A stretch of DNA of 64,000 bases from a virus (lineage: Duplodnaviria > Heunggongvirae > Uroviricota > Caudoviricetes). Position 1 is the stretch's first letter. Each line of letters starts with the position of its first letter. Both the position numbers and the translations under genes were made by a program. The stretch lies in the IMG/VR virus record IMGVR_UViG_3300024269_000017; one strand, given 5' to 3'. Below, piece by piece: positions 486 to 48,301 of the stretch. The notes beneath the pieces are model-generated. The model was given only the letters and a program-made list of their open reading frames with translations, did no database searches and was not told the origin of the DNA.

Positions 486-503
486 ATCCCTATTCTCCTT
501 TTA

Positions 504-3500
504 TTAAGCTTGCATAATTTGGACAAGATTTGGATTAGCTGTAATATGAAGATCATAGTTAGTAATCCAATCATCTACATAGGAAAGAATTTCATCATAT
601 GAAGTACTGTTATTATCGTAAGTAACAACAAAACTACTTAAAGATAAATATTCTTGAGAGCTTGCACCAAACATGGCATTTGTTGACAACCAAGTTAAAG
701 CGTTTGCATTAATTGGTCTTTGAGCGGTGCCAAAATTAATAATAGACCAACCACAGTTTTGGAATGTCTTATTACCATAAGCAGCACCAAAATCTTCAAT
801 ACCATCATTGTTAGTGTCTCCAAGACTGTACTCATTATAAGGAACAGTAAGAACAACACAATCCTTATTTCGGCATGCATTTGCAAATGCACTATTGCCA
901 AAATAGCTAACATTGTTAGTATTGTCAACCACTAAATTAGTACAATTTCTGAAGCAGAAAGTTCCAATAGTAGTTAGTGAGTCAGGGAAATCAACATGAA
1001 CTAAGCTGGTTGCTTTATCAAATGCAAAATCATTAAATTTATAAATCTTACTTAAATTCTCTGCATTTTCTTGACAACCTAAGAAGAACACAGCGTACAG
1101 ATCAGTATTTTGACACATACCATTAGATACAGAGCCTGTTGCAGAAGTACCTGCAGCAATTTCTAAGATCGGCCATTCGACACCTTGTTCATCAAATACG
1201 GTAATTGGGAAACAAACTTTTCCACCAATGCCATAAGTAGGATCAAGACCAACAATAGCATAATTGCCAAGAACGGCGTCTGTTTTATAAGTAATATTTA
1301 AATACTGCTGATCAATTATATTGTCATAAACACTACTTTCCATGTAAACCGCATAGAAGTTCATGTCGCTACCTGCTAAAATACGATTTAAATCGGTGGT
1401 GTCAGTAGAAGAAGTAAGAGAAGTATGCCAACCAATAAATTTATAACAAGAAGTCAAAGCCAAAGAGGTGCTATCTCTTTGAGGAATTCTAGTAGGAGTA
1501 ATAATTGGCTTACCAGCAGGAGTTTCAATTTCTTCAAACAAAGAGCCATCATAATTATAAAAGCTCATAGTATAACCATGCACTTTATATACTGCAACAA
1601 CAGTTACGCGTCCACCATCAATAGCAGATAAGACGTGAGTATTTAATTCATTAGTTGCATAAAGTGTAACTTTATCATTATCGGTAATTACGGAATGTGC
1701 CGCTCTAAAATCAAATGTGCCATCTTCAATTGCCCAACCAACAAAGTCATAATGCAATCTAGAAGGTTCTTCTCCTTCGTAAACTACTGGGGACTCAGCA
1801 TATCCATAAGGATACTTTAACCATCCAAGTGTCTTTTGAACACCTTCTGCATTATATTCAACAAAATGAACAGAATAAGCAGGATTTACTTTGTCACCAG
1901 TAATTTCAAGATCTGGATAAAGTGCATTATAACGTTTCCACAAAGTATATTCGTCTAATGCATCTCCCTCTTCCTGATTGTTCACGTGCATACGACCAGT
2001 TAAGCCTGGAAGAATTTTAGTATTTGGTAAAAGTTCATTATAAGTTAAGAAAGAGCGGTAACGATAAGTATCAGTTTCCACAGTTGCGGTTTTATCCTCA
2101 TACATATCTAAGAAAGCTGTTACAATATCAAGATTTTTAATGACGTTTGTATCAAAAGCATCATCAAAAGTATAAATTACACCATCATTAAGTTTATTGA
2201 TCCAGCCTTCCTCATAATAACCAGTAGCTCCGTTAGGATCATGGTATACTTCGTAAGTGGTTTGATTTTTTAATTCATAATACTTTGTTGCACGATCGAA
2301 AGATGTACCAATTTCAACTAATTTATATGGAGACCATTCCACATCGGTAAAGTCACACTTTAAAATAGGTGTGGTATTTCCATCAGTAATAATGCCATTG
2401 TGTTTAGCTTCTTTTACTTTATATAAGTAATCTAACAAACGATAAGAATCAATACCCATTTTACTTCTGTCTAATACAAATGTCTCAATATTACAAGTTG
2501 TATTAGCATTAGGAGTAGTGGTATATTTATCTGTTAAATTCTTAATATATAAACCAGTTGGAGTATTATCAATGGTTGGAGCTGTTTCTACAATACCCCT
2601 TAATTCAAGAGGTTGTTTCAAAACAAAGGAGGTAATTGTTTCTGGCAAGTACAAGGTCTTTAACAAGTTACCTTCAGTAAACTCGACAGAACTTAATTGT
2701 GTACCTGTTGCCATAAAAGTATTAATTTTTTCAGCACCAGTTAATTGAAGAGAACCAGCCAACTTAGTTAAATTAGATAGGTCCATATATGTCAAAAGTC
2801 CTTTTGGACTTGTAGCAGTGATAGCCAAAGCATCAATAAATTTATCTGTGATACCATCATTGCGATAGCCATCTATCAAAGAACCAAGTGTGAAAGTACG
2901 CAAACGAATTGCTTGAGAATAGTCAATTTCATTAAGGTACTTGTCACTTAAGTTGCCAAGATCCGCGATATATTCTGGACCGCGAATATAAGCCAACTGT
3001 TGAGACAATGGAACGCCATCGTCTAAGCGGTTTTTAATAGAAGATGGTGGGTCAATAAGAACAGGATCGTCTTGACCGGCAACATAAGGCTTAGGCGTGG
3101 TAGCAGTTTCATCATATACTACAGATAGATACTGAGATAAGTATCCATGTAGATTGAATGATGCACTTGCCTGCAAACCTTCTACTAAGTTACCTTCTTC
3201 ATCTTTAGTATCATCAGAAGTACGAGCAAGGTCGTTTGCATTATAACGCAATTTAATTTGCTTCTTAATAAATTCAGGATTATAAGAACCACCTAACCAC
3301 TGAGAGTCAAGATAATTCAAACGATTGCGGAAGAATGCTTGACGATTTAAAGTTCTATCACCTTGCAAGCAGTAGAAATAACCTTCAGTTTGAGAAATAG
3401 TTCCTTCTTGATCGGTATATCCTGTAGTTGCAGGAGAGATATATTTATAATCAGCGTCAATGTTCTTCATAATTTCGCTCCACTTGTCAGAACCATTGGT

Positions 3501-6500
3501 ATTATAATGTTCATTAAGTGTATCGAGTTCAATCGCACCTTCATTGCGTAAGCCGCGATAAATTGCTAAAATTTTGTCCATCATTAATCCAGCGAAGTTG
3601 ATCCATAAAACTGAACCAGCACCAGAGAAGATGGAAGCATCTTTAAATGCATGACCTGTGTCGTCATAAATATCAGGATCTTCAGATACTAATGTTGCAT
3701 CAGTGTTGTAGTCCCAAGAAACATGTCCGGAATTGTTTACACCTAACTGAGTATCAATATCGTAGAAAATTGGGAACCAAATAAAATCACCGTTAGCATT
3801 AGACTTAGCAGTTGGACCCCATGTTGCAATCATCATATTCTTTTGACGAGAGTCATAGCACAAAAGCAATTCAGTCATAATGAAATAGATTGCACAATAA
3901 TCAAGATCAAAGTGCTCAGTAAATTCATTTCTGAACTTAGCTTTTCTATAGCGGATAGAGTCAGTATCAAATTTCTCATAAAGATCTGCGCTAAAACCTT
4001 CCCAGACCAAATTTACTTCAATAGTAAATTCATCACGAGCATAGTTTTCACTAATCTCTAATCCACAATTTGCAACTGCCTCTTGGTCACTACCTTCAGG
4101 CATTTCGTAATAGAATAATCCATCTTCATGTTTTACAAAAGTATAAGGTCCAACGTATTTCTCATAATCATGAGTCATACCATTAGCTTTATCTTCTTCA
4201 GTCAGAGTGCCATTTACAGCTACTAAGAAATCAGTAAATGTCTTAAGATTATTAACAATTACGCTATTTGCATTATCTGTTTCATTCAAAGTCTGATAAG
4301 CAGCTTGAATGGTAGGAGTAATATTTGCTTTTGTATAAGTCTGATCTGCGCCAAGAGTATAATAAGTAACACCATGCTCATATTGAGAAGATAAGGTTAA
4401 ATAATATTTGGTCGCATCTAATGCACTACCAGTGAACTTTGTGGTATCTGTGCTATGTACCCAATCCCACATTACCTTAAAATTCTTGGTATGATCTTTA
4501 ATATACTGATTTGCTACACCAATCTCATTATCTTTATAAACATCTCCGATATCCCAGTCTTCATAAGTATAACGAGGCTCGAAATGATTATAAATTTGTA
4601 GACGACCAGCATTTTCTTCAGTGTTAGGAATTAATTCGTAGAAACCATTCACATCATCGCTTTGGAATTTACCAAGACCAGACTGGTTCTGGCAGAATTC
4701 CCAACATTCGGCTAACTCGCCAAAAGTACTCTTACGAGGCGTAGTTTCTTCTCTTAGCTCTTCATCATCGCTTAATTCATCGACCTTCTGCCAAGAGGTA
4801 TGAATCTTTTCTACGGAATATGGATTATATACACGTTTTGTTGGGTCTAAATCCCATCCAAAGTCAAAGCCAAATGTATTGGTAGCACCCTTATCAAGAT
4901 TAAAATTGTACTTACCAACATACTCAATATTACCATCAATGTCTTCCCAGAATACCAAAATTGGGAATCCGAAAACAGTGGTTCTATAATCTTTGGTTTG
5001 ACCAAAATATTTCTTTAATGGATGTCTCAAGTCTGCACTCTTGTCACTGCCAGTTTGATTTGCAATAGTCTGGATCAAATTGGCAAATTGCGTATTATGT
5101 GTACTTGAACTTTCCATATAGTCAGCTTTTAAACAGAAAGTCTTCGCGGCGATACCATTACCAATATCAATTTTAGAAATCATTTTACTTTCGTCATTAT
5201 GATCTTGATACCAGTAATCTTTCTTGTTTTCGTCGCCATCCCAAGTTTCAAAGCGGAAAGGTTTGTCCCAACTTGTAATACCAGAAACTTTTTCTTGGGT
5301 CTTTAACTTATAATTACGACGTGGATAACCCTGAGAAGAAGTTCCTTGCACGTCCAATTCAACATTCTGACAATGGAAGCCTTGACTTGGTTTAGCTGGA
5401 TTCCAGAAACGAATACCAACAGCTTTCTTGTTTCCTTTTGCGTAAGGAAGTTTATTGTCAGCCGTAGCACCTACATCAGAATTTTTATAAGTTGTAATAA
5501 CCATTGTTGGGATAATATCTGCTTGACGCACTTTAGCATAATCAATTTTATTACTTTCAACAATAGAACCATTGCGATTATAACGATTATGTCTCTCATC
5601 AAGAGTTGGAGCATCACCAATCCAGTTTTGAGTAATCGCAGAATAATTTAATGCATTTGTGTAAACACGAATATTAAAAATATCAACATCACAATAATCA
5701 GAGTTAATAACAATCTTATCAACGGAAGCGCTAAAGTCATCATTAGAAGTAAATTTCATAATATTGGTCAAAACACCATTAACATATAAATAAATTAATG
5801 GAATAGTATTTGAAGTTGGAGCACCAGTTTCTGTATTATAAATCTGAGTAAATTTACCAGCTGCATCTACTACGATAGAAATTTTTACTCTTTCATCATC
5901 GGTATAACGAGCATTAACAACTTTAGTTTTAGAAAGACTGAAGAAAGCCTCTTGAGTACCAAGCATAAAACCACGATAGTTGCTAGGATTAAAATATGTT
6001 AAAAATGCTCCTTCGCCACTAGATACAGTTTTTACCTGTTCAGTTTCTGGAGTTCCATCTTCGTCGAACATTGGGTTGCCATTAGCATCAATCTTTTGTA
6101 CTGCTTTTTCAATAATTAAGCGAGAGTAATCAACAGCATTACGAACTTTAAAATCAAATTCATAAGTACGAGAAGCCGCTTTGACAGTAGACATCGCTGC
6201 TAAAGGAATTTCAACAGAAGCACCATTGCTAACTCTTAAACAAGTACCTTCAGATTCATCCTCAATCCAACCATTATTAGCCCAGTTAAAATTATTAAAT
6301 TTAATTTCTCCAAGACCAATAGTATCATCTTGAGTTTCTGCTTTGTTTGGCCATTGTTGACGTTTATTTGGGGTTTCTAGATTAGAACGTCCAAGAGCAT
6401 TCAAATATAAAACTGCACCTTTTGTAGCGTCAAGGTCCATCTTATAATTTGGAACAATGAACACTTGGAATTCTTTATAAGTTAAACCGCACTGTAAAAT

Positions 6501-7817
6501 GAAAGAGTTCATTTCATTTACATTATAAGTAGCGATAGTCCATGGTTGCCATTCGGTTTCAGAATAAGTTACAGTAACACCAATTTGTTCTTCACCATTG
6601 ATGTAATATTCAACATACGCTTTACCATCATTACGAGTTGGATCATATACATTATAAGGAATCTTAATAATTGTATAATTTTCCTCTTCTGTCTTATTAT
6701 ATGGAGACCAAATAATTGGTACAGCTTTTTCACCAGAAGTGATATTTCTAAATACACCAATACCGTAATGATAATCACCAACAACAACTTCACTCGTGCC
6801 GATCATCATTGTCGCGTGAACATCTAATGTATGACCACCTTGATCTACGTTAGACAATAAATCATTTAATTTAAAGGCGCCACTTTGAGAAGTAACAACA
6901 TCGCTTACTTCATAGCTAAGTCCGCTTAATCCATCAGTGAGCGTATAAACAACATTAATACTCCAGTCGTCAGGAAGCTTAGATCCTTGTCCGGCATAAA
7001 CTTTATAATAATATTGCACATCTTGTTCTTCTGGTTTTAAGAGTGCAATTGGATTCCATTGATTTGTTGGCTCATAGTGAACATCAACACAAGTAACTTG
7101 ACGAGTTACTGGAGAGCTATAGCGGAGATCTACTTCTACTTGGAAAAGGAAATAGTTCTGATCACCAGCAACCACATCATCGGCATTTAGCTCAATATCA
7201 AACCAATCTCCAACATCAACGGTAAAACTCTTTGTAAAACGAGGAGCAATACCTTCTTTATATTCTCCAACGTTATTATAAATTTGCAAAGTAAAAGTAC
7301 CAGATTGACCTCCGCGGGCATCAGTAACTTTACCTTTACCAATTAACTTTGTTCCATATGGATGATATTTAGGAAAATCAATAGAAAGCAAAATGCTGGA
7401 ATCGAAGATTTCATCTCCATCTCCATCGCCGATTCCACCACCACCGCCACCGGCAATGAGAAGCTTTTCGCAATAAGCAAGAACATCATCCATCTGCACA
7501 ATCTTATAGAACGTATTATCAGAATTAATAATAATACTACCAACAAGATAGTGATCTTCTAAAATATTCTCACGAGGAAATGGATATAGTGCTGTTTCAG
7601 GATCTAAAACAAGCTCTTCGGGTGGAGTGTCACCATAAACGAAAAGGATACCATTTCCGCTCATTTGATAACGGTTACCATTTACATCGAAGAAGATTTT
7701 TCTATTATCATAAGCAAAATAAACGGCGCCGTTTCTTTTAATCGCGGCATTAACCATTTCTTCTGTACCATGATAAGGACTAAAAGCATCAGTAGAGATT
7801 CTTTCAGATACATTCAT
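504..7817 (-). CDS. giant tail fibre / host-recognition protein (2437 aa)
   Basis: uninterrupted 7.3-kb ORF; RBS GGAAGGAG 8 nt upstream; Gly/Asp low-complexity tract near N-terminus; position at distal end of tail module; TAA stop; no in-frame TAG. Confidence 0.8.
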   Translation of the reverse strand: MNVSERISTDAFSPYHGTEEMVNAAIKRNGAVYFAYDNRKIFFDVNGNRYQMSGNGILFVYGDTPPEELVLDPETALYPFPRENILEDHYLVGSIIINSDNTFYKIVQMDDVLAYCEKLLIAGGGGGGIGDGDGDEIFDSSILLSIDFPKYHPYGTKLIGKGKVTDARGGQSGTFTLQIYNNVGEYKEGIAPRFTKSFTVDVGDWFDIELNADDVVAGDQNYFLFQVEVDLRYSSPVTRQVTCVDVHYEPTNQWNPIALLKPEEQDVQYYYKVYAGQGSKLPDDWSINVVYTLTDGLSGLSYEVSDVVTSQSGAFKLNDLLSNVDQGGHTLDVHATMMIGTSEVVVGDYHYGIGVFRNITSGEKAVPIIWSPYNKTEEENYTIIKIPYNVYDPTRNDGKAYVEYYINGEEQIGVTVTYSETEWQPWTIATYNVNEMNSFILQCGLTYKEFQVFIVPNYKMDLDATKGAVLYLNALGRSNLETPNKRQQWPNKAETQDDTIGLGEIKFNNFNWANNGWIEDESEGTCLRVSNGASVEIPLAAMSTVKAASRTYEFDFKVRNAVDYSRLIIEKAVQKIDANGNPMFDEDGTPETEQVKTVSSGEGAFLTYFNPSNYRGFMLGTQEAFFSLSKTKVVNARYTDDERVKISIVVDAAGKFTQIYNTETGAPTSNTIPLIYLYVNGVLTNIMKFTSNDDFSASVDKIVINSDYCDVDIFNIRVYTNALNYSAITQNWIGDAPTLDERHNRYNRNGSIVESNKIDYAKVRQADIIPTMVITTYKNSDVGATADNKLPYAKGNKKAVGIRFWNPAKPSQGFHCQNVELDVQGTSSQGYPRRNYKLKTQEKVSGITSWDKPFRFETWDGDENKKDYWYQDHNDESKMISKIDIGNGIAAKTFCLKADYMESSSTHNTQFANLIQTIANQTGSDKSADLRHPLKKYFGQTKDYRTTVFGFPILVFWEDIDGNIEYVGKYNFNLDKGATNTFGFDFGWDLDPTKRVYNPYSVEKIHTSWQKVDELSDDEELREETTPRKSTFGELAECWEFCQNQSGLGKFQSDDVNGFYELIPNTEENAGRLQIYNHFEPRYTYEDWDIGDVYKDNEIGVANQYIKDHTKNFKVMWDWVHSTDTTKFTGSALDATKYYLTLSSQYEHGVTYYTLGADQTYTKANITPTIQAAYQTLNETDNANSVIVNNLKTFTDFLVAVNGTLTEEDKANGMTHDYEKYVGPYTFVKHEDGLFYYEMPEGSDQEAVANCGLEISENYARDEFTIEVNLVWEGFSADLYEKFDTDSIRYRKAKFRNEFTEHFDLDYCAIYFIMTELLLCYDSRQKNMMIATWGPTAKSNANGDFIWFPIFYDIDTQLGVNNSGHVSWDYNTDATLVSEDPDIYDDTGHAFKDASIFSGAGSVLWINFAGLMMDKILAIYRGLRNEGAIELDTLNEHYNTNGSDKWSEIMKNIDADYKYISPATTGYTDQEGTISQTEGYFYCLQGDRTLNRQAFFRNRLNYLDSQWLGGSYNPEFIKKQIKLRYNANDLARTSDDTKDEEGNLVEGLQASASFNLHGYLSQYLSVVYDETATTPKPYVAGQDDPVLIDPPSSIKNRLDDGVPLSQQLAYIRGPEYIADLGNLSDKYLNEIDYSQAIRLRTFTLGSLIDGYRNDGITDKFIDALAITATSPKGLLTYMDLSNLTKLAGSLQLTGAEKINTFMATGTQLSSVEFTEGNLLKTLYLPETITSFVLKQPLELRGIVETAPTIDNTPTGLYIKNLTDKYTTTPNANTTCNIETFVLDRSKMGIDSYRLLDYLYKVKEAKHNGIITDGNTTPILKCDFTDVEWSPYKLVEIGTSFDRATKYYELKNQTTYEVYHDPNGATGYYEEGWINKLNDGVIYTFDDAFDTNVIKNLDIVTAFLDMYEDKTATVETDTYRYRSFLTYNELLPNTKILPGLTGRMHVNNQEEGDALDEYTLWKRYNALYPDLEITGDKVNPAYSVHFVEYNAEGVQKTLGWLKYPYGYAESPVVYEGEEPSRLHYDFVGWAIEDGTFDFRAAHSVITDNDKVTLYATNELNTHVLSAIDGGRVTVVAVYKVHGYTMSFYNYDGSLFEEIETPAGKPIITPTRIPQRDSTSLALTSCYKFIGWHTSLTSSTDTTDLNRILAGSDMNFYAVYMESSVYDNIIDQQYLNITYKTDAVLGNYAIVGLDPTYGIGGKVCFPITVFDEQGVEWPILEIAAGTSATGSVSNGMCQNTDLYAVFFLGCQENAENLSKIYKFNDFAFDKATSLVHVDFPDSLTTIGTFCFRNCTNLVVDNTNNVSYFGNSAFANACRNKDCVVLTVPYNEYSLGDTNNDGIEDFGAAYGNKTFQNCGWSIINFGTAQRPINANALTWLSTNAMFGASSQEYLSLSSFVVTYDNNSTSYDEILSYVDDWITNYDLHITANPNLVQIMQA

Positions 7818-7851
7818 AAAACGATTTTCTCCTTCCTCTCAAAAAATAAAA

Positions 7852-7880
7852 AGGGCAAAGTGCAGTGTCACTTTGCCCTG
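7852..7880 (-). terminator. rho-independent terminator after 7899-9545 gene
   Basis: GC hairpin GGGCAAAGTG...CACTTTGCCC followed on minus strand by T-run. Confidence 0.5.
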
Positions 7881-7898
7881 TGTAGTAAAATTTATAAA

Positions 7899-9545
7899 TT
7901 AGGCGAATTCTCCCCAGACAAGATCAATAGTAACTGCAGAACCAGAAGCGGTTACAGTTAAGTTATTACTCTTAACGGAGAAGGAGCCTTCTACTTCCTC
8001 ACCAGACTGCTGAGCCACGACAGTCTTAACAGTCGCGGTATTGCTTGCAGCGGATGCAGAATAAGCAATACTGCTAAGAGTGTGATTGGCTACAGAATAA
8101 GTACCAGTGGTGATAGCAGTTACATGGCCATACTCATCATAAGTTACGCCACTAATCGCAGCGAAGGTTTGAGTGGTACCAGCAGTAGTAAGATTTGCAG
8201 TACTGGTCTTTGCCTGTACGGTCTTAGTTGGGTGAGCAATAGTTAAAGTAGTACCACTAGCGCTGCCAGTTAAGCCACTACCAACTGCAATAGAACCAAC
8301 ATTAGACTCTTCACTTGCAAAGCTCTGAACAAGAGTGAATTCAGAATCAGAAACAGCAGCTGTATACTGATACAAATCATCATTGCCTGCAGGTACGTAC
8401 TTCCACTCAAGAGCAGCAGTAATCTTACCGTCGGTCTCAGTACCAGTTGCAATGAACAAATCACCGACCTTGGCGCCAGCTTGTACCAAAGCACCAGAAG
8501 TATTCTTGATATCGCCAGCGGTACTTACAATGTAAGTATCACCAACTGCAACACCAGAATTAGCAACTGGAAGATTGGTAGTTCCGCCAACCGCGCCAAT
8601 AAATGTCATTGCATTCGCAGTCTTTAGCTGTGCGGTAATTGCAGCATCAACTTCAGTCTTAGTGTAAAGATCAGCAAGAGTTGCAGTACCATTTACAAAC
8701 TGAGCAGTCGCCTTTGCTGCGCCATAACCATACTTAATAATCGGAGTGATACCGGTGCTAGCAACTTCCTCACCATCAGCAAGCTGAATAGTAGTCTTAA
8801 AGGCACCATTATTATCAAAAGCATTGGTAATGCTCTGAGGGGCAACATTCAAATTAATTTGATTTGTGCCAGTTGCAGTAATCGCAACACCGCCACCATT
8901 ATTTAACTTTAAGGTATGGTTGGTAGTGCTTGCAGTTTTTGCAGTACCATCTGCATTATAACCACTCTTGATTTCACCCAAGGTGATAGTAGCCACATTA
9001 CTTGCAACGCTTGCGCCCAAGCTATTGCTGGTAATAGTATCTGCAGAAGTGATGACAATACCATTGCTATCAGCATTAACATTGGTAGTCGCGGTATTAC
9101 CACTTGCAATAATTAAGCTAAATCCATCGGTTACATCTGTGCCATTCTTGTCATACAAAGAAAGCTTAGCCTTAGCCTTCTCGCCATCAGTTACTTCTGA
9201 ATATACAGTTTCGCTGCTGGCAATAATATTCTCAAGAACAGGAGCAGCATTAATTTGTACCCATTGAGAATTGTTTTCAGTTGTATTATAGCAACACAAA
9301 ATGTTATCCTTGCGGACATAGTAAAGAGCAGTCTTACGCTCCTCAGGTGGATAAGTAGGCAAATCCGCAGTGGTATTTACCATAACAATATCACTTAAAC
9401 GAAGTCTCTTGCCACCCAAGTCAGCATACATAATATGCTCATCGGTCGTAACATACACATTACCATTAGTAATGTCAACCTTACTTAGATTAGTAGATAA
9501 ACCACTTAAAAAGCGAAGTTTGTTATCTGTTGCATTAATCGCCAT
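7899..9545 (-). CDS. tail fibre-like protein, Thr/Ala/Gly-rich (548 aa)
   Basis: ORF track; composition typical of fibre shaft; TAA stop. Confidence 0.7.
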   Translation of the reverse strand: MAINATDNKLRFLSGLSTNLSKVDITNGNVYVTTDEHIMYADLGGKRLRLSDIVMVNTTADLPTYPPEERKTALYYVRKDNILCCYNTTENNSQWVQINAAPVLENIIASSETVYSEVTDGEKAKAKLSLYDKNGTDVTDGFSLIIASGNTATTNVNADSNGIVITSADTITSNSLGASVASNVATITLGEIKSGYNADGTAKTASTTNHTLKLNNGGGVAITATGTNQINLNVAPQSITNAFDNNGAFKTTIQLADGEEVASTGITPIIKYGYGAAKATAQFVNGTATLADLYTKTEVDAAITAQLKTANAMTFIGAVGGTTNLPVANSGVAVGDTYIVSTAGDIKNTSGALVQAGAKVGDLFIATGTETDGKITAALEWKYVPAGNDDLYQYTAAVSDSEFTLVQSFASEESNVGSIAVGSGLTGSASGTTLTIAHPTKTVQAKTSTANLTTAGTTQTFAAISGVTYDEYGHVTAITTGTYSVANHTLSSIAYSASAASNTATVKTVVAQQSGEEVEGSFSVKSNNLTVTASGSAVTIDLVWGEFA

Positions 9546-9564
9546 AAGTTAGTCCCTCCTATTT

Positions 9565-10920
9565 TTAATTATCAGAAATTGCAGACCAAGTCATAGTCAT
9601 GCTAGAAGAACGAGCATCGACATACTCGGTAACAGTAGTATAAGTAACTCCATCAAAAGTAAGATTTCCAATGCGACTATCCATCGGTTGAGCCCAATTG
9701 CCTTGAGCAGTTAATACATACATATTATCTGTATCGGCAACAACACCAGCTGATGGAACAGGCACTAAACCAGCTAAGCCTTGACTCTTAGTAAAATCAT
9801 AAAGTAAAGCTTTACCGTCAGACTCAGGAACATCTGTACCATTAATACGAACACCATTAATATAATCTAATCCGCCAATTTGATTTTGTAGATTTTCTAA
9901 GGAGCCAAGAATGCCTGAGGCAATAATTGGATTGCCTTCTGCATCAGTACCGGAAGCAGTTCCGATAATTGAGGCTAAACCATCTACATCAGTACGTAAC
10001 GTACCAATATTAGTTTGTGCAATTTTAACAGAACTTTCTAATGTGCCAGTACGAGACTCTAAATTGGCAATAGATGTATTTAATGTCCCAACAGTTGTTT
10101 TTAAACCAGAAACATCTGTCTCAAGTGTTCCTATACGAGTTTCAAAACTAGAAAGATCAACTGGGCTACCCAACTCTTCCCATTTTTGTCCATCGTAGAT
10201 ATATTCTGTTGAAGTTTCTTTTACGATATAAATATCGCCAGATTCTGCTGTTTCTGGAAGATCATCTTCTGTTTCAACAGAACCGCGATAATGAGTTGCT
10301 CCAGCGAATTCCGCTTGAGCCTCTTCCTTAGTATAATAATTATTGGTTAGATTGGATTTAACACCTGCGACCTCAGTTTGCAATGCAGTAATTGCGGTTT
10401 GAAGTCCATCTACAGTAGTTGGATTTGGTTCATACCAACCTAAAACGAAAGTTGTACCATCTTCATCAAGAGTAACCTGAGGAATTAATCCTGCTTTCCA
10501 AGGGTACTCATCATTAACTTCTTGAAGCACGTAAGCGGCAGGAACTTCTGCCCCAGACTCATCTTCATGAGCAGCAACATAACGATAATACTTAGATCCA
10601 AAATCTCGTAAAGTCAAAAGACCCTGATCATCAAGAACAATAGTATTTTCGTCTACATTAACTGCGTCTCCACCTGCTCCAGAACCAACTTCAAGTAAAG
10701 TGCCAGCAGTATCGGAAATTACATATACCGTAGAGGTGTTATCTGTTTCATTAACATAAGTAACAATTTGACCAACATAAGCAACTGTGCTTGTGCTTGC
10801 ATATGTTACAAGAGCGTCATAATCATACCAAATAGAAGTGGAATCTAATGGAATAGGGTTACCACGCTTGATATTAATCGGAAGAGGCATAAATCCGCCG
10901 TCTTTTTTAATTACAGCCAT
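9565..10920 (-). CDS. tail fibre/needle protein with heptad-like GTLxT repeats (451 aa)
   Basis: ORF track; repeated TRIGTLETDVSGL / TLESSV motifs suggest trimeric coiled coil; TAA stop. Confidence 0.7.
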   Translation of the reverse strand: MAVIKKDGGFMPLPINIKRGNPIPLDSTSIWYDYDALVTYASTSTVAYVGQIVTYVNETDNTSTVYVISDTAGTLLEVGSGAGGDAVNVDENTIVLDDQGLLTLRDFGSKYYRYVAAHEDESGAEVPAAYVLQEVNDEYPWKAGLIPQVTLDEDGTTFVLGWYEPNPTTVDGLQTAITALQTEVAGVKSNLTNNYYTKEEAQAEFAGATHYRGSVETEDDLPETAESGDIYIVKETSTEYIYDGQKWEELGSPVDLSSFETRIGTLETDVSGLKTTVGTLNTSIANLESRTGTLESSVKIAQTNIGTLRTDVDGLASIIGTASGTDAEGNPIIASGILGSLENLQNQIGGLDYINGVRINGTDVPESDGKALLYDFTKSQGLAGLVPVPSAGVVADTDNMYVLTAQGNWAQPMDSRIGNLTFDGVTYTTVTEYVDARSSSMTMTWSAISDN

Positions 10921-10934
10921 TTCTTTTCTCCTCC

Positions 10935-12152
10935 TTATCCTAAAGTAATTACGTAGTTTTCAGTTGGATCGAGAGCTGCTGGCTCATATACCCAAACTTT
11001 ATAGTCTACTGCCTGGTAACCGCTCTTGCCTTCAACTTGTACGTAATCCTCTTGAAGTTTGAACTCAGAAGTAATATCTGCGTTCTGACTGACAGGCATA
11101 GTAACTTTCTTAACACCAATAGAGCTTGTCGCAGGAATTGCAACAACTACCTTCGCGGCATTCGCCACTGAACTTGCCTCATATTGAGGCAATGTTTTTG
11201 CGGAAACTGCTGCATTACTATTTGTTAATTTTCTAATATTGGCAGAATTTAAGGCTGTACCTGCAGTCATTGCACCATAGAAAAATTGACGATAGCCATA
11301 AAGCTTACCGCTCTTAGCTGTTGCAGTTCCTTCTTTAATGCGATAGCCTGCAACTGCATTACCCAAATTATTAACAGGAATGTCACCTTGAGTATATTCT
11401 GCAGTAGCATTAATGTAATAAGCAGTATCATCAGTTACAGTCAAAGCTGGGAATGTACCAGTAGTTGCTGTCTGAGCAGTATTGCCAATGGTATCAGTGA
11501 CAGAATAAGTTGCAGTGACACCAGTTGGACTAGGACCATATTCATAAGAGCCTGGATTAAAAGTCAAAGTATAGCTTGGGGTCACAGTACTGCCAACTTC
11601 ATAGGCTTTGTTTTGTGCTGCGGCGATACTTAAACCTGGCTGAGTAACATCAGGATTTTCTGGTTGAGAGAACAACATTTCAAAAACTTCTTTAACATTT
11701 TTGCCTTGTGTTTGTACAACCTCAGAACCAGAAGCACCAATCTCAACATATCCTACGTCAGTAGTAAATGTTAAATTCTGGTCAAAATAAACGTTTTCAG
11801 CGTTATAATTGCCATCCATGGCTTTCCAGTGAATGCCGTCATAAACATAAGCTGTATGACTATAAGAATCACCAAAAAGTAATTCCTTAATTACACATAC
11901 ATCATTTTTAATGAGTGTGGCACCAGCAGTAACTCTTGCAATTGCTTCTTCCTTAGACTCAGTAAACACGCCATTTTCTTGAAGGCGTACGCCTTCATAA
12001 AAATTAGCTTGAGCTAAATTTTTTTCTCCTCGAAGCAATTCTCCGGTATCTGTTAAGAAGTATAATGCATTACTTTGTTTAGAAGCTAAAGCATTATATT
12101 CTGCTCGCGTACCAAATTTAAAGAGTACGGGACTATTAGTTGCCATAAGCAA
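10935..12152 (-). CDS. tail structural protein (405 aa)
   Basis: ORF track; TAA stop. Confidence 0.7.
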   Translation of the reverse strand: MLMATNSPVLFKFGTRAEYNALASKQSNALYFLTDTGELLRGEKNLAQANFYEGVRLQENGVFTESKEEAIARVTAGATLIKNDVCVIKELLFGDSYSHTAYVYDGIHWKAMDGNYNAENVYFDQNLTFTTDVGYVEIGASGSEVVQTQGKNVKEVFEMLFSQPENPDVTQPGLSIAAAQNKAYEVGSTVTPSYTLTFNPGSYEYGPSPTGVTATYSVTDTIGNTAQTATTGTFPALTVTDDTAYYINATAEYTQGDIPVNNLGNAVAGYRIKEGTATAKSGKLYGYRQFFYGAMTAGTALNSANIRKLTNSNAAVSAKTLPQYEASSVANAAKVVVAIPATSSIGVKKVTMPVSQNADITSEFKLQEDYVQVEGKSGYQAVDYKVWVYEPAALDPTENYVITLG

Positions 12153-12326
12153 TTTACCCCCTTCTTTATTATAAATAAAATGTTGAGCTACGCTCTTTTT
12201 TCTATCAAATTATGACTAATTCAATTATCTAATACAACCCATTTATGCAGCTGTATCATAAGTATAATCAATGAATAGATAAAGAGGATCGTCATTATCT
12301 AAAATGCGGTTTGCATTTAGAAAATT

Positions 12327-12632
12327 CTAAATTGAGTTAGCATCAAAGCGTAAGCTATAAATAGGTACTTGCATTACATTAGTGGTATCAAAAGACCACT
12401 TGCCTCGAGTATCTTCTTTATATAGACCATTCACGCGCGTGCTTAATGGAGTAGGAGTGTCATTTAAATAAAATTTAATTCCAAATACTCCTCCAGAGAT
12501 AGTTAAAGCTGAAATACGAATGGAACTATCAAACATAGAACCACTAATTAACATTTCTGCAGTTAAATTGGCAGGATAATTACGACTATCTCCATCTTTA
12601 ACATATCGCATTTGTTTTGTTTTTGTTGCCAT
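12327..12632 (-). CDS. small tail-associated protein (101 aa)
   Basis: ORF track; separate frame from neighbours. Confidence 0.5.
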   Translation of the reverse strand: MATKTKQMRYVKDGDSRNYPANLTAEMLISGSMFDSSIRISALTISGGVFGIKFYLNDTPTPLSTRVNGLYKEDTRGKWSFDTTNVMQVPIYSLRFDANSI

Positions 12633-12643
12633 AATATCCCTCC

Positions 12644-15343
12644 TTAGAAGATTCTATCTTCTGCTTTCGTAGCAGTGATATTCATAGTTCCATCATGAGA
12701 GAAAGAATAACTAAAAGATTTTACAAAATATTCTCCTCGAATTCCAGTTATATCATCTGAAACAGATATGCGCACATTTGGTTCAAAATAATAAACTGGC
12801 AAAGAATTTAAAGTAATAGTTTCTTGATAATAAGTATATTGATATACCATATTATCTAAAACTTCTTTAGCACTTTTTCCCTAGCCACTTAAAGTAAAAT
12901 AATTAAGTAATCCACCCACCAAATTTAATTTTACATAATTCAATGTAGATTCAGTTGGTTGAGTGTCTGTAGGATCAATAAACAATATTTCAGGAGTATC
13001 TCTAAAAAATATCGCTTTTACATCGTTATCATTAACAACTTTCGGCCGTCTACCGATTTTATCCATACGGTATTTCTCTAATTCGCTACCCTCGCCAATA
13101 AAATCAATCCAAAACAACAATTTACCTGGATCTTTAAAATATAAAGTATGTGGTAAATTATGTCCTTCACTATCAAGTTCAGCCTAACAGTAAATAATAT
13201 CGGGATGCCAATATTTATTCTCAAACCACTCATTATGTCGTTTAATACGATCTTCTTTTTCTGAATCAGTTAAAGAATTATCTTTTTCAATTTCACTAAT
13301 TGAACGATTATCATATACCAATCGCCAAAAGGCTAACATATCAGCATAACAATAATCATAACCAGTATTCCAAGTATTTTGCCATTTATCAATTAATTCA
13401 ATATGAGTACTACTCATAAATAAATCAGCATCGCTACCATCAGCAGCCGGAATTCCAAAAATCATTGAGCCTTTTTCTTGTAAATATTCAATAGACTTTC
13501 CAGTGTTTTTGTCTGTCATTTCTAAAACTGGATGTTTCCAAGATTTTTCATCAGCATCATAATAATAACATTTTGCGGGAACATTTAATTTAGCACCTGT
13601 TTTATATGGATAATATCCTTTATTCATGGCTAACGTTAATTGTTCTATATATGCAGAAGCTCTTGAATTATCATAGGCCATACGGTATAAAATTTCTCGC
13701 CAGTCCACAATCTAAAAATTATTAGTATCCCACTGTAAAGCATCTAAATTCACAGTAACTATAACTGTTTGATTAATATATTCAGGCTTTTCTGGGATAG
13801 TAATACCAAAATAATCAGAATATCGGCTACGACCATCAGCCAAGAAATATTGCCATTTATTAGAATAAGTTCCATCTCCATTGTCGACATATACCCAATG
13901 AAAAGAATAATAACCATTCAACTCAGTTGTGCCAAGAGTTTCTGTCATTGCAGATAAGAAATTCTCTTCATTAACAATAACATCATGACAATTAAGACCG
14001 TTATTGCGACCTGGCTCAAAATAAATCTTTTTCCCAATTTCGCCAAAACGCCAATTATCTTCTGTATAATAAGTGATACCATTAAATAAACAGAAATATT
14101 CTTGCGGTTTATTATCAATAGCATAACGTAAATGTATTGGTGCATCAGTTGAAGTTGTGCCCCATACAACAAAATCATTACGAATATTACTTAATAAAGG
14201 CTTATTTGCAAATGAGTTAATCAAAAAACCATTAATAAATTCATATTGAGTCTAAGTACTATTTAAACTATCATAATAAGTACTTTCACCTTCATTTGTA
14301 ATTGCACCATGCCAAGCAATATTATGATAAATACGCTTTCTTTGAAAAACAAATCTACCCCAAATATCATAGAAATATTCAAATTCACCAAGCATATTTA
14401 CAATAGCATCAAGAGCTTGTGTGACTGGACTACCAGCATTTACAATTAATTCACCTGGATAAGTAAGTTCTGTTTCACGATATCCTGCAGTATCACCATA
14501 TTCTACAAATTTAATAATACGATAATAAATTCCATTTAGTTCAAATGGCTCATAAGGAATATAGTAATCAGGATCATCTTCTGTAGCGCCTTCTTTTTTG
14601 GGTGCAGCTTGAATAAAATCATTAGCCAAAGCAGATCCTTCAAATACCATTTGACTAGTATAAAACTTAAAATCAGATGATGTAGAAATATCATAAATAA
14701 ATAAGCCTTTATCAGCTACTTTATAATCTAATAATTCTACTGCGCAATCATCTAAATCTGCAATTATAATATTTTCGTAAGATTCAAGAGCATAAGTGTG
14801 TACGGCGTCTCTGACAATTTCTTTGATAGCAATTTCTTTGCGGTAAGTGGTGCCATCACCATTAATAATTTCAATATCACTAAAGCTGTGATCGGCAAAT
14901 AAACTTCCTCCAATTGAACCATCTAACATGCACATTTTATCTTTTCCCTAAATAGAAATTGATAATCCAGATGTATTGGAGGTCTAAGAGAAAGAAGTAA
15001 TAATAAATACTCCCTGTTGAAACCAAATAATTTCATCATGAATTGTATCAATGTAGTTTCGTAATCCAATTAAAACCGCAAATTTAGTATGTAATCCCCA
15101 ATAAATTTCATTTAATTCTGAATTGGTATTATCTGTTGTAATATTGAGGCTGCAAGTGCGGCGGGTGGCTGAAGAGCCATCCACAGAAATATTGCCAGAT
15201 ACAATATTACCGGTAATTTCTGCGATGGCTCGTTCATCCCAGTCTAATGAAATTAATTTAGCAAATACTTCACGTTGAGTATAATTATCTAACTGCTTTA
15301 AAAAGACATTATCTAAAGAAGCTTGAGAAGTACCAATAAACAT
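12644..15343 (-). CDS. ~899-codon baseplate/tail structural gene read through 5 in-frame TAG codons
   Basis: six ORF-track fragments (12644-12850, 12881-13120, 13184-13708, 13712-14224, 14252-14935, 14984-15343) share one frame; every separating codon is TAG (checked at 12881, 13184, 13712, 14252, 14984); gaps contain no TAA/TGA; GGAGGTAG RBS before ATG at 15341-43; TAA stop. Confidence 0.6.
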
Positions 15344-15657
15344 TATCTAACTACCTCCACTTCTTTTTCTTCCTCTTCAAGGACTTGTCGTAAATAATTA
15401 TTCAAACGGTCACGATTAACAAGCCAATTTAACCGCAATGTTTCAACATCATTCTCAGAAATAATTTGTGGATAAGCCTAAACATAAATTCTATATCCAC
15501 CTTGATAATAGTTTTCCACTTGAATTGCATTAATTTCAATCATTTGTCGATTATTAAATATATAGAAGAAATTATAATTCTCAATATCACCCAATGGTTT
15601 ATTAATGTTTTCTGGGTCTGCTATTACAGTAAAATTAAAGCGAGCTGCCAAATAATC
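15342..15657 (-). CDS. small ORF (~100 aa) between two large tail genes; start codon unclear; one in-frame TAG
   Basis: open frame ending in TAA that overlaps the next ATG (TAATG coupling); no convincing ATG/RBS, so start could be TTG or a frameshift product. Confidence 0.25.
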
Positions 15658-18351: not shown

Positions 18352-18353
18352 TC

Positions 18354-18740: not shown

Positions 18741-18765
18741 AATCCTTTTTCTCCTTTATATATGA

Positions 18766-24700: not shown

Positions 24701-24759
24701 ATTGTATAAATCGCATCAAATAAATCGTTTTGCAAATTACCATTTTTCTATTCTGCCAT
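18766..24759 (-). CDS. very large (~1998-codon) tail gene (Dit/Tal-like position after the tape measure) with >=15 in-frame TAGs; may be more than one gene
   Basis: all ORF-track fragments between 18805 and 24318 are in one frame; gaps stepped by hand (19747-19824, 21289-21459, 21688-22035, 23254-23289, 23737-23874, 24319-24759) contain only TAG; ATG at 24757-59 behind AAAGGAGATGAAAC; TAA at 18766-68; Ser-Tyr 21-nt tandem repeats near C-terminus. Confidence 0.4.
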
Positions 24760-24870: not shown

Positions 24871-24879
24871 TTATATTTA

Positions 24880-47919: not shown

Positions 47920-47932
47920 CCGTCACACCTCC

Positions 47933-48289: not shown

Positions 48290-48301
48290 AATGGACCTCC
48301 C

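What the first reader, a model, noticed from the sequence alone, without database searches (positions are those of the whole stretch)
504..12152. TAG-free islands: the whole distal tail-fibre block and the most abundant virion proteins avoid TAG
The 2437-aa fibre plus three following genes (~3,840 codons) contain no in-frame TAG at all. Neither do the capsid, protease/scaffold, 234-aa head protein, 310-aa major tail-like protein and the small connector genes. The adjacent terminase, portal, tape measure and baseplate genes are full of TAG. Avoidance in high-copy proteins fits TAG being decoded by an inefficient suppressor. The TAG-free fibre block may instead be a recently acquired module from a non-recoded relative, since fibre swapping is common.
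Basis: inference. Interest (0 to 1): 0.55.

Follow-up and report, generated by a model that had tools for sequence, protein, structure and literature searches.

The report
TAG-poor genes in an amber-recoded phage
In this gut phage, which reads the stop codon TAG as glutamine, the most abundant virion proteins and the tail-fibre genes avoid TAG because it behaves like a disfavoured synonymous codon, not because the fibre genes were recently imported from a phage with the standard code.

Summary
The late module (504-52294, minus strand) belongs to a TAG->Gln siphovirus of about 174 kb, SPbeta/phAss-like. It has 104 in-frame TAGs in 16,979 codons, spread very unevenly (chi-square p=2e-10). The fibre block 504-12152 has 0 TAG in 123 Gln codons against 104/570 elsewhere (p=3e-10).

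Avoidance in abundant proteins is supported. The HK97-fold capsid protein, the 234-aa head protein and the tail tube show strong codon bias (CAG 95%, AAG 94%, GCT/GGT/CGT). They are almost TAG-free in 19 recoded relatives (7 TAG in 612 Gln codons, against 22-43% in other genes). TAG share falls as codon adaptation rises (rho about -0.62 in the window and in 67 genes of relatives).

The fibre-import idea is not supported:
- A strain 96% identical shows uniform divergence across the fibre block and the baseplate, and carries 4 TAGs in the block.
- All ten fibre homologues examined (99-28% identity) lie in recoded genomes with the same gene order.
- Those homologues hold 2-24 TAGs each.
- The block's codon usage shifts along the phage's own high-expression axis.

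TAG depletion in the block is therefore conserved but leaky (lower than the baseplate in 8 of 8 lineages). Several small "TAG-free" genes are chance. This is a modest extension of known phage recoding biology.

The parts
504..7817 (-). Giant distal tail fibre (2437 aa, BspA-type LRR_5 near the C-terminus). 0 TAG, 56 CAA, 22 CAG. Codon adaptation 0.51.
   Evidence: orthologues of 99-28% identity in recoded genomes carry 2-24 TAG
7818..7898 (-). Intrinsic-terminator-like hairpin plus T-run between the 548-aa gene and the fibre gene
   Evidence: sequence read (GGGCAAAGTG...CACTTTGCCC TTTTTATTTTTT)
7899..9545 (-). 548-aa fibre-block protein. 0 TAG, CAG>CAA (9:5). Highest codon adaptation in the block (0.54). 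Pooled over relatives: 4 TAG in 128 Gln codons.
9565..10920 (-). 451-aa fibre-block protein (coiled-coil-like). 0 TAG in 14 Gln codons.
10935..12152 (-). 405-aa proximal fibre-block protein (weak Phage_tail_C tip-domain match). 0 TAG in 17 Gln codons. 91% aa identical to its L060 orthologue.
12243..24759 (-). Baseplate/tail-tip genes used as comparison: 129 aa (1 TAG), 899 aa (6), 1002 aa (4), 128 aa (0), 1997 aa (18). Codon adaptation 0.40-0.43 for the TAG-containing genes (0.70 for the TAG-free 128-aa gene); GC3 0.16-0.23.
24880..36255 (-). Tape measure protein, 3791 aa. 42 TAG, 161 CAA, 17 CAG.
38845..39777 (-). Major tail tube protein (310 aa; precomputed Pfam PF27173 YomU_Tube). 0 TAG, 12 CAG, 1 CAA. 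A terminator follows it.
   Evidence: TAG-free in 13 of 15 recoded relatives. The AF2 model was too poor for a fold test.
39803..40549 (-). 248-aa protein (YomV_2nd-like) lying between TAG-free genes. 11 of its 16 Gln codons are TAG, and it is TAG-rich in all relatives.
42431..43021 (-). 196-aa head-associated protein. 0 TAG; TAG-free in 13 of 18 relatives.
43086..44132 (-). Major capsid protein (348 aa, HK97 fold, Pfam YonB). 0 TAG, 11 CAG, 1 CAA. A terminator follows it.
   Evidence: TAG-free in 17 of 19 recoded relatives
44156..44860 (-). 234-aa head protein. 0 TAG, 13 CAG, 0 CAA.
   Evidence: TAG-free in 17 of 18 relatives
44887..46296 (-). 469-aa scaffold-like protein (YonD_N). 0 TAG here. 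Pooled TAG share in relatives is 0.10; a conspecific strain has 1 TAG.
46312..50044 (-). Portal (7 TAG), a 118-aa gene (1 TAG) and terminase large subunit (2 TAG).
36345..36869 (-). 174-aa gene (weak YomO match), TAG-free here. With only 4 Gln codons this is not significant, and relatives carry TAG.
38229..38762 (-). 177-aa gene (YomW-like), TAG-free here (5 Gln codons). Pooled TAG share in relatives is 0.37, so this is chance.
40565..41509 (-). 314-aa gene, TAG-free here and in conspecific strains. Pooled TAG share in other relatives is 0.33.
50046..51218 (-). 390-aa gene (YonG_N), TAG-free here and in a conspecific strain. Pooled TAG share in other relatives is 0.25.

Best explanation
The window holds the late (virion) module of a large siphovirus of the SPbeta/phAss-like group that decodes TAG as glutamine.

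In this lineage TAG is simply a third Gln codon. AT-biased mutation produces it freely (CAG->TAG is a single transition). In low-copy genes (tape measure, baseplate, portal) its frequency sits at roughly the level base composition predicts.

Translational selection opposes it, with a strength that scales with the amount of protein made. The capsid protein, the 234-aa head protein and the tail tube are under strong codon selection: CAG, AAG, GCT, GGT and CGT are preferred and A-ending codons are avoided. CAG and AAG are also the codons the phage's GC-rich early genes use. These three genes therefore hold essentially no TAG.

The fibre block is under intermediate codon selection, especially the 548-aa protein and the 2437-aa fibre. 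Its equilibrium TAG share is low (about 3-12% of Gln codons in most relatives) rather than zero. The exact zero in this strain is the tail of that distribution plus drift.

Shown: the counts, their significance, their conservation across relatives, the link to a codon-adaptation index that excludes Gln codons, and vertical inheritance of the fibre block.

Inferred: that the bias reflects expression level, and that the cost of TAG is slower or slightly leaky decoding by a phage suppressor tRNA competing with release factor 1.
For: (1) Uneven TAG use. Heterogeneity p=2e-10; block against the rest p=3e-10. In-frame TAG expected 27.6, observed 0 in the block; expected 67.6, observed 70 in baseplate/tape measure.

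(2) The capsid/head/tube genes show bias across many amino acids: GCT 0.83, GGT 0.69, CGT 0.64, AAG 0.94, CAG 0.95, almost no NNA codons. The fibre block shifts the same way in many codon families compared with baseplate/tape measure (AAG 0.43 vs 0.17, TTC 0.41 vs 0.14, TCA 0.05 vs 0.23, CGA 0.04 vs 0.20, CAG 0.31 vs 0.09).

(3) A codon-adaptation index that excludes Gln codons predicts TAG share. In the window, rho=-0.62, p=0.006, n=18. In 67 genes of 9 relatives, rho=-0.63, p=1e-8. Logistic slopes are -9.3 and -9.9. Among fibre orthologues, high-adaptation copies (0.47-0.53) have a TAG share of 0.03-0.08, and most low-adaptation copies have more (L063 0.40 -> 0.32; L042 0.38 -> 0.18; L059 0.45 -> 0.28).

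(4) Conservation. Capsid 4/240, head protein 1/228, tube 2/144 TAG in 19 recoded relatives, against 0.22-0.43 in other genes. The relative without CAG bias (L034) does have TAG in its capsid gene.

(5) The block's TAG share is below the adjacent baseplate in 8 of 8 lineages, which are far beyond synonymous saturation from each other (Wilcoxon p=0.008). The low share is therefore an equilibrium property, not a leftover of history.

(6) Vertical inheritance. Divergence from the conspecific L067 is a uniform 96% nt across block and baseplate, and TAG/CAG/CAA polymorphisms occur inside the block. Alignments to syntenic orthologues are full-length and collinear.

(7) The capsid identity was confirmed by an HK97-fold match.

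(8) Early genes of the same phage use CAG 0.86 and AAG 0.76. This fits CAG being the codon best served by the unmodified host machinery.
Against: - Codon adaptation alone predicts about 11 TAGs in the block, not 0 (P=8e-6). In relatives a block indicator still adds a small extra depletion (p=0.004). Something beyond the index contributes, or the index is an imperfect proxy.
- The portal is fairly CAG-rich yet 30% of its Gln codons are TAG, and p248 is TAG-enriched. Selection on TAG is therefore not a simple function of one variable.
- Expression levels and copy numbers of the fibre proteins are unknown.
- No suppressor tRNA lies in the window or in the fetched loci. The decoding mechanism is taken from the related phAss-1 genomes (PMC10607447).
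- The genes compared across relatives are not phylogenetically independent, so the p-values are optimistic.
- The index was calibrated on GC3-richer genes, so a composition effect cannot be fully separated from selection.
Confidence: 0.6

Rival explanations
1. Recent horizontal acquisition: the fibre block 504-12152 was imported from a standard-code relative and has not yet had time to accumulate TAG.
For: - Zero TAG in 123 Gln codons is lower than codon adaptation predicts (about 11 expected).
- The distal genes are more diverged from the next relative L060 (548-aa 55%, fibre 65%) than the proximal ones (91%, 81%) and the baseplate (85%).
- Standard-code members exist in the wider family (L019, L025-L038, L043-L058).
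- Mosaic replacement does happen elsewhere in this species (tape measure and the 36.9-38.3 kb region in L070).
Against: - Divergence from the conspecific L067 is uniform (94.7-96.4% nt) across block and baseplate, with no breakpoint, and L067 has 4 TAGs in the block.
- All ten fibre homologues examined (99, 65, 63, 56, 48, 38, 37, 34 and 28% identity, plus L042 and L059) lie in recoded genomes with the same gene order and contain TAG.
- The two most conserved block genes (91% and 81% to L060) are also TAG-free, so no module boundary coincides with the TAG-free zone.
- The block's codon usage deviates along the phage's own high-expression axis, not towards a foreign signature.
- The depletion recurs in 8 of 8 lineages.
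Confidence: 0.07
2. Recurrent exchange across the code boundary: fibre genes recombine often with standard-code phages, and only TAG-free alleles are portable. Fibre alleles resident in recoded phages are therefore repeatedly reset to a low TAG count.
For: - Depletion is conserved but leaky in all lineages.
- TAGs in fibre orthologues are mostly lineage-specific singletons.
- Tail-fibre mosaicism is well known (general knowledge).
- A residual block effect remains beyond codon adaptation.
Against: - No standard-code genome was found among the ten nearest fibre homologues.
- TAGs in the baseplate genes are just as often singletons (8 shared against 41 single), so singleton TAGs are not special to the fibre.
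- The proximal, conserved, non-receptor genes of the block are depleted too.
- The shift in non-Gln codons towards the phage's own optimal set is not predicted by this model.
Confidence: 0.1
3. Temporal control: TAG-free genes are the ones that must be translated before, or independently of, the phage suppressor tRNA. TAG-containing genes are locked until the code switch (an extension of the Borges et al. model).
For: - TAG-free status of the capsid, head and tube genes is nearly all-or-none across relatives.
- Some genes are TAG-enriched (p248: 11 of 16 Gln codons), as expected for 'locked' genes.
- Borges et al. propose that selection enriches or depletes recoded stops in particular gene families.
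Against: - TAG-free and TAG-rich genes are interleaved on one strand with very short gaps (portal-scaffold-capsid; p248-tube), so they are probably co-transcribed.
- Making capsid and tube protein early has no use without portal and tape measure.
- The TAG-free genes also carry strong bias at non-Gln codons, which timing alone does not explain.
- The fibre block's depletion is graded and polymorphic rather than absolute.
Confidence: 0.15
4. Chance or drift only: TAG is neutral everywhere and the TAG-free genes are sampling noise.
For: - The small genes (4-12 Gln codons each) are not individually significant.
- Four of them carry TAG in relatives.
- TAG/CAG polymorphism exists within the species.
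Against: - Heterogeneity p=2e-10 and block P about 1e-11.
- Conservation of depletion in the capsid, head and tube genes over 19 relatives.
- Depletion of the block in 8 of 8 lineages.
Confidence: 0.03

Closest known systems
Stop-codon (TAG->Gln, code 15) recoding of phage late genes, with gene-family-specific bias in use of the recoded stop (Borges et al., bioRxiv 10.1101/2021.08.26.457843; Yutin et al., PMC7886860; Peters et al., PMC9523058)
   Same: - In-frame TAG is confined to the late structural module.
- TAG aligns to Gln in standard-code homologues.
- Late genes stop in TAA (two in TGA), never in TAG.
- TAG density differs strongly between gene families, and one tail gene (p248) is enriched.
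   Different: - Those studies tested for enrichment (lysis genes, a tail tube family in crAss-like phages) and read it as a timing lock. I found no report there of depletion tied to protein abundance or codon adaptation.
- Here the tail tube is among the most TAG-depleted genes, the opposite of the crAss-like tail tube family.
- The lysis genes lie outside the window.
phAss-1 / proposed Phassvirus group of code-15 siphoviruses from gut viromes (Babkin et al. 2023, PMC10607447; OQ749652)
   Same: - Capsid protein 52% identical.
- Giant tape measure protein.
- TAG->Gln in TerL, portal and tape measure.
- The capsid gene is TAG-free with 15 CAG and 0 CAA.
- Recoded and standard-code members occur in one monophyletic group.
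   Different: - This is a different, larger lineage of about 174 kb, with a 3791-aa tape measure and a 2437-aa LRR fibre.
- The phAss-1 receptor-binding protein is a pectate-lyase type of about 1070 aa.
- The paper does not analyse TAG distribution against abundance.
Translational-selection codon bias in phage structural genes (e.g. Lucks et al. 2008, PMC2266997)
   Same: The capsid and tail genes carry the strongest codon bias in the genome, towards the codons that are decoded best.
   Different: Here the disfavoured set includes a reassigned stop codon, so the bias appears as 'TAG-free islands' inside a recoded module.
Tail-fibre module swapping between phages (mosaicism)
   Same: The distal fibre genes are the most diverged part of the tail module (55-65% against 81-91% aa identity to L060).
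   Different: No breakpoint, no foreign codon signature and no standard-code donor were found, and the block is collinear with its orthologues in every relative examined.

Membership tests
Code-15 (TAG->Gln) recoded phage late module | Conserved late genes are interrupted by in-frame TAG and become full-length when TAG is read as sense | tested here: met
   TerL, portal, tape measure and baseplate genes become contiguous ORFs of 535-3791 aa only when TAG is sense
Code-15 (TAG->Gln) recoded phage late module | TAG positions align with glutamine in standard-code homologues | tested here: met
   81 Q (next K 36) among residues aligned to the window's TAG codons in 10 non-recoded relatives, with several invariant-Q columns. 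In fibre orthologues, many TAGs align to CAA/CAG, most clearly among the closer relatives.
Code-15 (TAG->Gln) recoded phage late module | TAG is not used as a terminator in the recoded module | tested here: met
   25 of the 27 late genes end in TAA and two in TGA; none ends in TAG
Code-15 (TAG->Gln) recoded phage late module | Phage-encoded suppressor tRNA with CTA anticodon | tested here: inconclusive
   No tRNA in the 64-kb window or in 21 related loci. The remaining roughly 110 kb of the genome was not available. The related phAss-1 genomes carry 2-3 tRNA-Sup-CTA genes (PMC10607447).
SPbeta/phAss-like large siphoviruses | Homologous capsid, tube and packaging genes in conserved order, with a giant tape measure | tested here: met
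   - Capsid 52% identical to phAss-1, 35% to Enterococcus phage EF1-type and 26-27% to SPbeta-like phages.
- Precomputed Pfam YonB, YonD_N, YonG_N, YomU_Tube, YomV_2nd, YomW.
- HK97 fold.
Recently imported (mosaic) tail-fibre module | A discontinuity in similarity to close relatives at the module borders | tested here: not met
   One collinear 17.4-kb alignment to L067 at 96.1%. Per-gene identity is 94.7-96.4% in both block and baseplate.
Recently imported (mosaic) tail-fibre module | Nearest homologues lie in a different (here standard-code) lineage | tested here: not met
   All homologues examined, from 99% down to 28% identity, are in TAG-recoded genomes with the same flanking genes
Recently imported (mosaic) tail-fibre module | Codon usage or composition foreign to the resident genome | tested here: not met
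   The block's codon usage lies between the phage's own low- and high-expression gene sets in most codon families compared. GC is 0.35-0.41 against 0.29-0.44 elsewhere in the late module.
Translational-selection codon bias | Coordinated bias across many amino acids in the putatively most abundant proteins | tested here: met
   (GCT, GGT, CGT, CCT, GTT, AAG, CAG preferred; NNA avoided)
Translational-selection codon bias | The bias (here TAG avoidance) scales with an independent adaptation index and is conserved in relatives | tested here: met
   rho -0.62 and -0.63; conservation in 19 relatives
Translational-selection codon bias | The bias tracks measured expression or protein copy number | not testable with these tools
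   No expression or proteome data. Capsid and tube abundance is inferred from their structural role. The copy number of the fibre proteins is unknown.

The most novel reading that the evidence does not exclude
TAG density may be an evolved rheostat for virion stoichiometry. On this reading the phage tunes the number of suppressor-dependent codons per gene inversely to the copy number required: none in capsid and tube, few in the fibres, many in the tape measure and baseplate, and most in the p248 tail protein. Limited suppressor-tRNA decoding would then set relative protein yields within co-transcribed late operons. The compositionally distinct GC-rich early module would be translated purely by host machinery.
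Probability: 0.15. Interest if true: 0.6.

Novelty: new member of a known kind. Interest (0 to 1): 0.3.

Why it matters
- **Reading TAG-free stretches.** In alternatively coded phages, TAG-free stretches inside a recoded module should not be taken as foreign DNA, or as 'standard-code blocks', by gene callers or by people studying phage mosaicism. They can simply mark highly expressed genes.
- **A sequence-only abundance predictor.** Low TAG share together with high codon adaptation predicts which unannotated virion proteins are abundant. Here these are the 548-aa fibre-block protein and, in relatives, the 590-aa protein downstream of the fibre.
- **A constraint on the regulatory-lock model.** In this lineage most of the TAG variation looks like ordinary mutation-selection balance. 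Only a few genes (p248) are candidates for deliberate enrichment.

Tried and rejected
- **Megablast of the fibre block against GenBank phages:** no match.
- **Single-protein pattern search for the 405-aa gene in IMG/VR:** only one distant locus. The relatives that mattered came from the protein database plus contig look-ups.
- **tRNA scans:** nothing in the window or in 21 loci, so the suppressor could not be examined.
- **Sequence search of capsid, tube and head proteins against PDB:** no meaningful hits.
- **AF2 model of the tube protein:** too poor (pLDDT 55) for a fold search. Its identity rests on the precomputed Pfam YomU_Tube label.
- **Is 54-64 kb non-coding, differently coded or an RNA locus?** No long ORF under any stop-codon set, no Rfam hit and no tandem repeats. 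Reading the sequence showed it is an array of small plus-strand early genes with sigma70-like promoters.
- **Is the GC jump a chimeric assembly?** Rejected. Two independent JGI contigs are 100% identical across the junction.
- **CAG/(CAG+CAA) alone as a predictor of TAG share within the window:** no correlation (rho 0.02). The adaptation index over all other amino acids does correlate.
- **Does phAss-1 share the early/late GC dichotomy?** Its pattern is different.
- **Age of TAGs, fibre against baseplate:** singletons dominate in both, so this did not discriminate.

Full report
**What the window is**

If only TAA and TGA are treated as stops, the minus strand from 504 to 52294 resolves into 27 tightly packed genes. 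All but two end in TAA.

PHROG, Pfam and precomputed Pfam labels identify these genes:
- a sigma-factor-like gene, terminase large subunit and portal;
- a YonD-like scaffold protein, a 234-aa head protein and a YonB-type capsid protein;
- a YomU-type tail tube and a 3791-aa tape measure;
- three large baseplate proteins;
- a four-gene distal block ending in a 2437-aa LRR-containing fibre.

The capsid protein model (pLDDT 73) matches HK97-fold capsids and encapsulins (103 PDB hits at E<=0.001).

The nearest described phage is phAss-1 (OQ749652; capsid 52% identical). It belongs to a group of gut siphoviruses already shown to use TAG->Gln with their own suppressor tRNAs. More distant hits are Enterococcus EF1-type and SPbeta-like phages. 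Conspecific contigs of about 174 kb exist in public assemblies.

TAG = Gln holds here. In ten standard-code relatives the residue aligned to the window's TAG codons is most often Q (81, next K 36). Invariant-Q columns occur in the tape measure, portal, p248, p212 and p118.

**Checking the observation**

The late module holds 104 in-frame TAGs in 16,979 codons.

- **Fibre block.** 504-12152 has none in 3841 codons and 123 Gln codons.
- **Also TAG-free.** The capsid, 234-aa head, scaffold-like, 196-aa and tube genes, and five small or mid-sized genes.
- **TAG present.** The tape measure has 42; the baseplate genes 18, 6 and 4; the portal 7; p427 8; p248 11 (of its 16 Gln codons); TerL only 2.
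- **TAG is not absent as a trinucleotide.** The fibre gene has 69 copies out of frame.

Position-specific base frequencies predict 27.6 in-frame TAGs in the block against 0 observed. The same calculation predicts 67.6 for the baseplate and tape-measure genes, where 70 are observed. TAG is therefore used as composition predicts in the low-copy tail genes and is specifically missing from the block.

Heterogeneity across genes has p=2e-10, and the block against the rest has p=3e-10. The caveat is that the small genes (4-12 Gln codons each) are not individually significant.

**Abundant proteins**

The capsid, 234-aa head and tube genes have a striking codon bias across many amino acids:

| Codon(s) | Share in capsid/head/tube genes |
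|---|---|
| GCT | 0.83 |
| GGT | 0.69 |
| CGT | 0.64 |
| CCT | 0.71 |
| GTT | 0.75 |
| AAG | 0.94 |
| CAG | 0.95 |
| GCA, GGA, ACA, TCA, TTA, ATA | almost absent |

This is the signature of translational selection, not a plain GC effect. Intrinsic terminators directly follow the capsid and tube genes, which is typical of highly expressed genes.

Across 19 non-redundant recoded relatives the TAG share of Gln codons is as follows:

| Gene | TAG / Gln codons | Share |
|---|---|---|
| Capsid | 4/240 | 0.017 |
| 234-aa head protein | 1/228 | 0.004 |
| Tail tube | 2/144 | 0.014 |
| Sigma, TerL, portal, p314, p177, p248 and others | | 0.22-0.43 |

The one relative whose capsid gene lacks CAG preference (L034) has three TAGs in it.

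p314, p177, p390 and p174 are TAG-free in the window but carry TAG at shares of 0.12-0.37 in relatives. Even the tube and scaffold genes have one TAG each in a strain 96.5% identical to the window.

**The fibre block is not a recent import**

*Conspecific strain.* L067 aligns to window 1-17408 as one collinear block at 96.1% nt identity. Per-gene identity is 94.7-96.4% in both the fibre block and the baseplate, so there is no breakpoint. L067 nevertheless carries four TAGs in the block. Two are in the fibre, where the window has CAG. One is in the 451-aa gene (window AAG) and one in the 405-aa gene (window CAA). Outgroups indicate that at least two or three of these are gains in L067.

*Homologues.* A search of 5.8 billion proteins found 14 full-length fibre homologues. 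I fetched the DNA of ten; L042 and L059 came from IMG/VR. All lie in TAG-recoded genomes with the same order: baseplate, 129-aa gene, 405-aa, 451-aa and 548-aa genes, fibre, 70-aa gene, 155-aa gene, 590-aa gene. Alignments are full-length and collinear.

*TAG in the fibre orthologues.* Their fibre genes contain 2, 4, 24, 5, 7, 7, 5, 9, 9, 10 and 18 TAGs.

*Position of the TAG-free zone.* The two proximal block genes are as conserved relative to L060 (91% and 81%) as the baseplate (85%), yet they are TAG-free too. The TAG-free zone therefore does not coincide with the fast-evolving receptor-binding part.

**What explains the block**

The depletion is conserved but leaky. The TAG share of the block is below that of the adjacent baseplate in 8 of 8 lineages (Wilcoxon p=0.008):

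| Lineage | Fibre block | Adjacent baseplate |
|---|---|---|
| Window | 0 | 0.16 |
| L060 | 0.05 | 0.27 |
| L061 | 0.07 | 0.29 |
| L062 | 0.10 | 0.28 |
| L065 | 0.07 | 0.23 |
| L042 | 0.13 | 0.31 |
| L059 | 0.18 | 0.23 |
| L074 | 0.14 | 0.40 |

These lineages differ by 35-70% at the protein level, so their synonymous sites are saturated. A persistently low share must be an equilibrium property.

A codon-adaptation index calibrated on the capsid, head and tube genes, with Gln codons excluded, gives these values:

| Gene(s) | Codon adaptation |
|---|---|
| Fibre | 0.51 |
| 548-aa protein | 0.54 |
| Portal | 0.47 |
| TerL | 0.45 |
| Large baseplate genes and tape measure | 0.37-0.43 |

The index correlates negatively with TAG share in the window (rho -0.62, p=0.006) and in 67 genes of nine relatives (rho -0.63, p=1e-8).

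Within the fibre family, well-adapted copies (L060, L062, L064, L065, L067: 0.47-0.53) have shares of 0.03-0.08. Most poorly adapted copies have more (L063 0.40, L042 0.38 and L059 0.45 have 0.32, 0.18 and 0.28); L061 (0.42) is an exception at 0.08.

The block's codon usage lies between the low- and high-expression sets in many codon families. Some of these shifts are A->T at the third position (TCA, CGA, GGA), which a GC shift cannot explain.

In relatives, the 590-aa gene downstream of the fibre has the highest adaptation (0.45-0.60) and almost no TAG (3/125).

My best reading is that TAG behaves as a non-optimal synonymous Gln codon. Mutation supplies it freely and selection removes it in proportion to translational load. 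CAG, the Gln codon used 86% of the time in the phage's GC-rich early genes, is the favoured one.

**Limits**

- A logistic model trained on the other window genes predicts about 11 TAGs in the block, not 0 (P=8e-6). In relatives a block indicator adds a small further depletion (p=0.004).
- The exact zero is not statistically different from the conspecific's 4 of 123, but the species as a whole sits below the codon-adaptation prediction.
- The portal (CAG-rich, yet 30% TAG) and p248 (69% TAG) show that one variable does not capture everything.
- Expression is inferred, not measured.
- No suppressor tRNA lies in the DNA available.
- 'Inefficient suppressor' is too strong. A tape measure with 42 TAGs needs at least about 95% read-through per codon to give 10% full-length product (arithmetic, inference).

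**Rivals**

- **Recent import:** about 0.07.
- **Recurrent exchange with standard-code phages:** about 0.10. Not excluded, but no standard-code donor was found, and TAG singletons are as common in the baseplate as in the fibre.
- **Temporal control:** about 0.15. It fits the all-or-none pattern in the capsid and tube genes and the enrichment in p248. It does not fit the interleaving of TAG-free and TAG-rich genes with 15-25-bp gaps, nor the bias at non-Gln codons.
- **Pure chance:** excluded for the block and for the capsid, head and tube genes. Accepted for the small genes.

**Comparison with the literature**

Borges et al. tested gene families for enrichment of recoded stops (lysis genes, and a tail tube family in crAss-like phages). 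They proposed that selection 'enriches or depletes' them. Yutin et al. used stops in TerL, MCP and portal as markers of recoding. The phAss-1 paper lists which genes carry TAG without analysing abundance. I found no explicit report that TAG avoidance tracks codon adaptation or protein abundance, but it is what codon-usage theory predicts (Lucks et al., PMC2266997).

I therefore file this as another member of a known kind, with a modest new quantitative point, and I set interest at 0.3.

Noticed in passing
window 54600-64000 (+ strand) versus 504-52294 (- strand): The early region is an array of small genes (100-220 aa) with sigma70-like promoters. It has GC 0.49, GC3 0.55-0.77, mostly TGA stops and Leu CTG 0.53. 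The late module has GC 0.35, GC3 about 0.18 in the tail genes, and TAA stops. That is a gap of about 14 GC points within one phage. Two independent JGI contigs are 100% identical across the junction, so it is not a chimera. phAss-1 does not show the same pattern.
   Followed up: partly
window 39803-40549 (-): The 248-aa YomV_2nd-like gene just upstream of the tail tube gene has 11 TAGs among 16 Gln codons. It has the highest pooled TAG share of the 16 gene families compared across recoded relatives (0.43 pooled). It is a candidate for positive selection for TAG, in the sense of the 'lock' proposed by Borges et al.
   Followed up: partly
window 43022-43085, 38763-38844, 24760-24879, 7818-7898; promoters near 36870-36937 and 52295-52385: Strong hairpin plus T-run terminators sit directly after the capsid, tube, tape-measure and 548-aa genes. 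Extended -10 sigma70-type promoters (TTGACA/TTGACT, 17-18 bp, TGGTATAAT) lie upstream of the 174-aa gene and of the sigma-factor-like gene.
   Followed up: no
window 36932-38332 and 24880-36255, versus L070/L071: Strains about 96.5% identical elsewhere have an unalignable replacement covering p427 and part of p177. Their tape measure is only about 78% nt identical and is much richer in TAG (31 of 90 Gln codons against 42 of 220). Mosaic replacement therefore occurs within the species, but in the tape-measure region rather than the fibre block.
   Followed up: partly
L062 and L065 (baseplate and fibre alignments): In these more distant relatives several TAGs align with columns otherwise conserved as Asp, Ser, Leu, Tyr or Trp (for example bp1 columns 55, 502, 605 and 1259; p405 column 251; fibre columns 489 and 2742). 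This could be alignment noise, tolerated Gln substitutions, or a different decoding of TAG in that lineage.
   Followed up: no
L019, L025-L033, L035-L038 versus L020/L021 and L034: Standard-code and TAG-recoded genomes are interleaved when ranked by capsid identity. For example L019 is standard-code and L021 recoded, both at 63% identity. This implies repeated gains or losses of recoding in the family. L034 is recoded but lacks CAG bias, and carries TAG in its capsid, head and tube genes.
   Followed up: no
L067 17694-19463 (just beyond the window's left edge) and its orthologues in L060-L065, L073, L074: A protein of about 590 aa, two genes downstream of the fibre, has the highest codon adaptation of the tail-distal genes (0.45-0.60). 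It holds only 3 TAGs in 125 Gln codons across relatives, so it is probably an abundant, unannotated virion or lysis-associated protein.
   Followed up: partly
window 24880-36255 (-): The tape measure is 3791 aa, with a poly-Gly run and a Thr-rich tract. At about 0.15 nm per residue (general rule of thumb) it implies a tail of over 500 nm, unusually long even for SPbeta-like phages.
   Followed up: no
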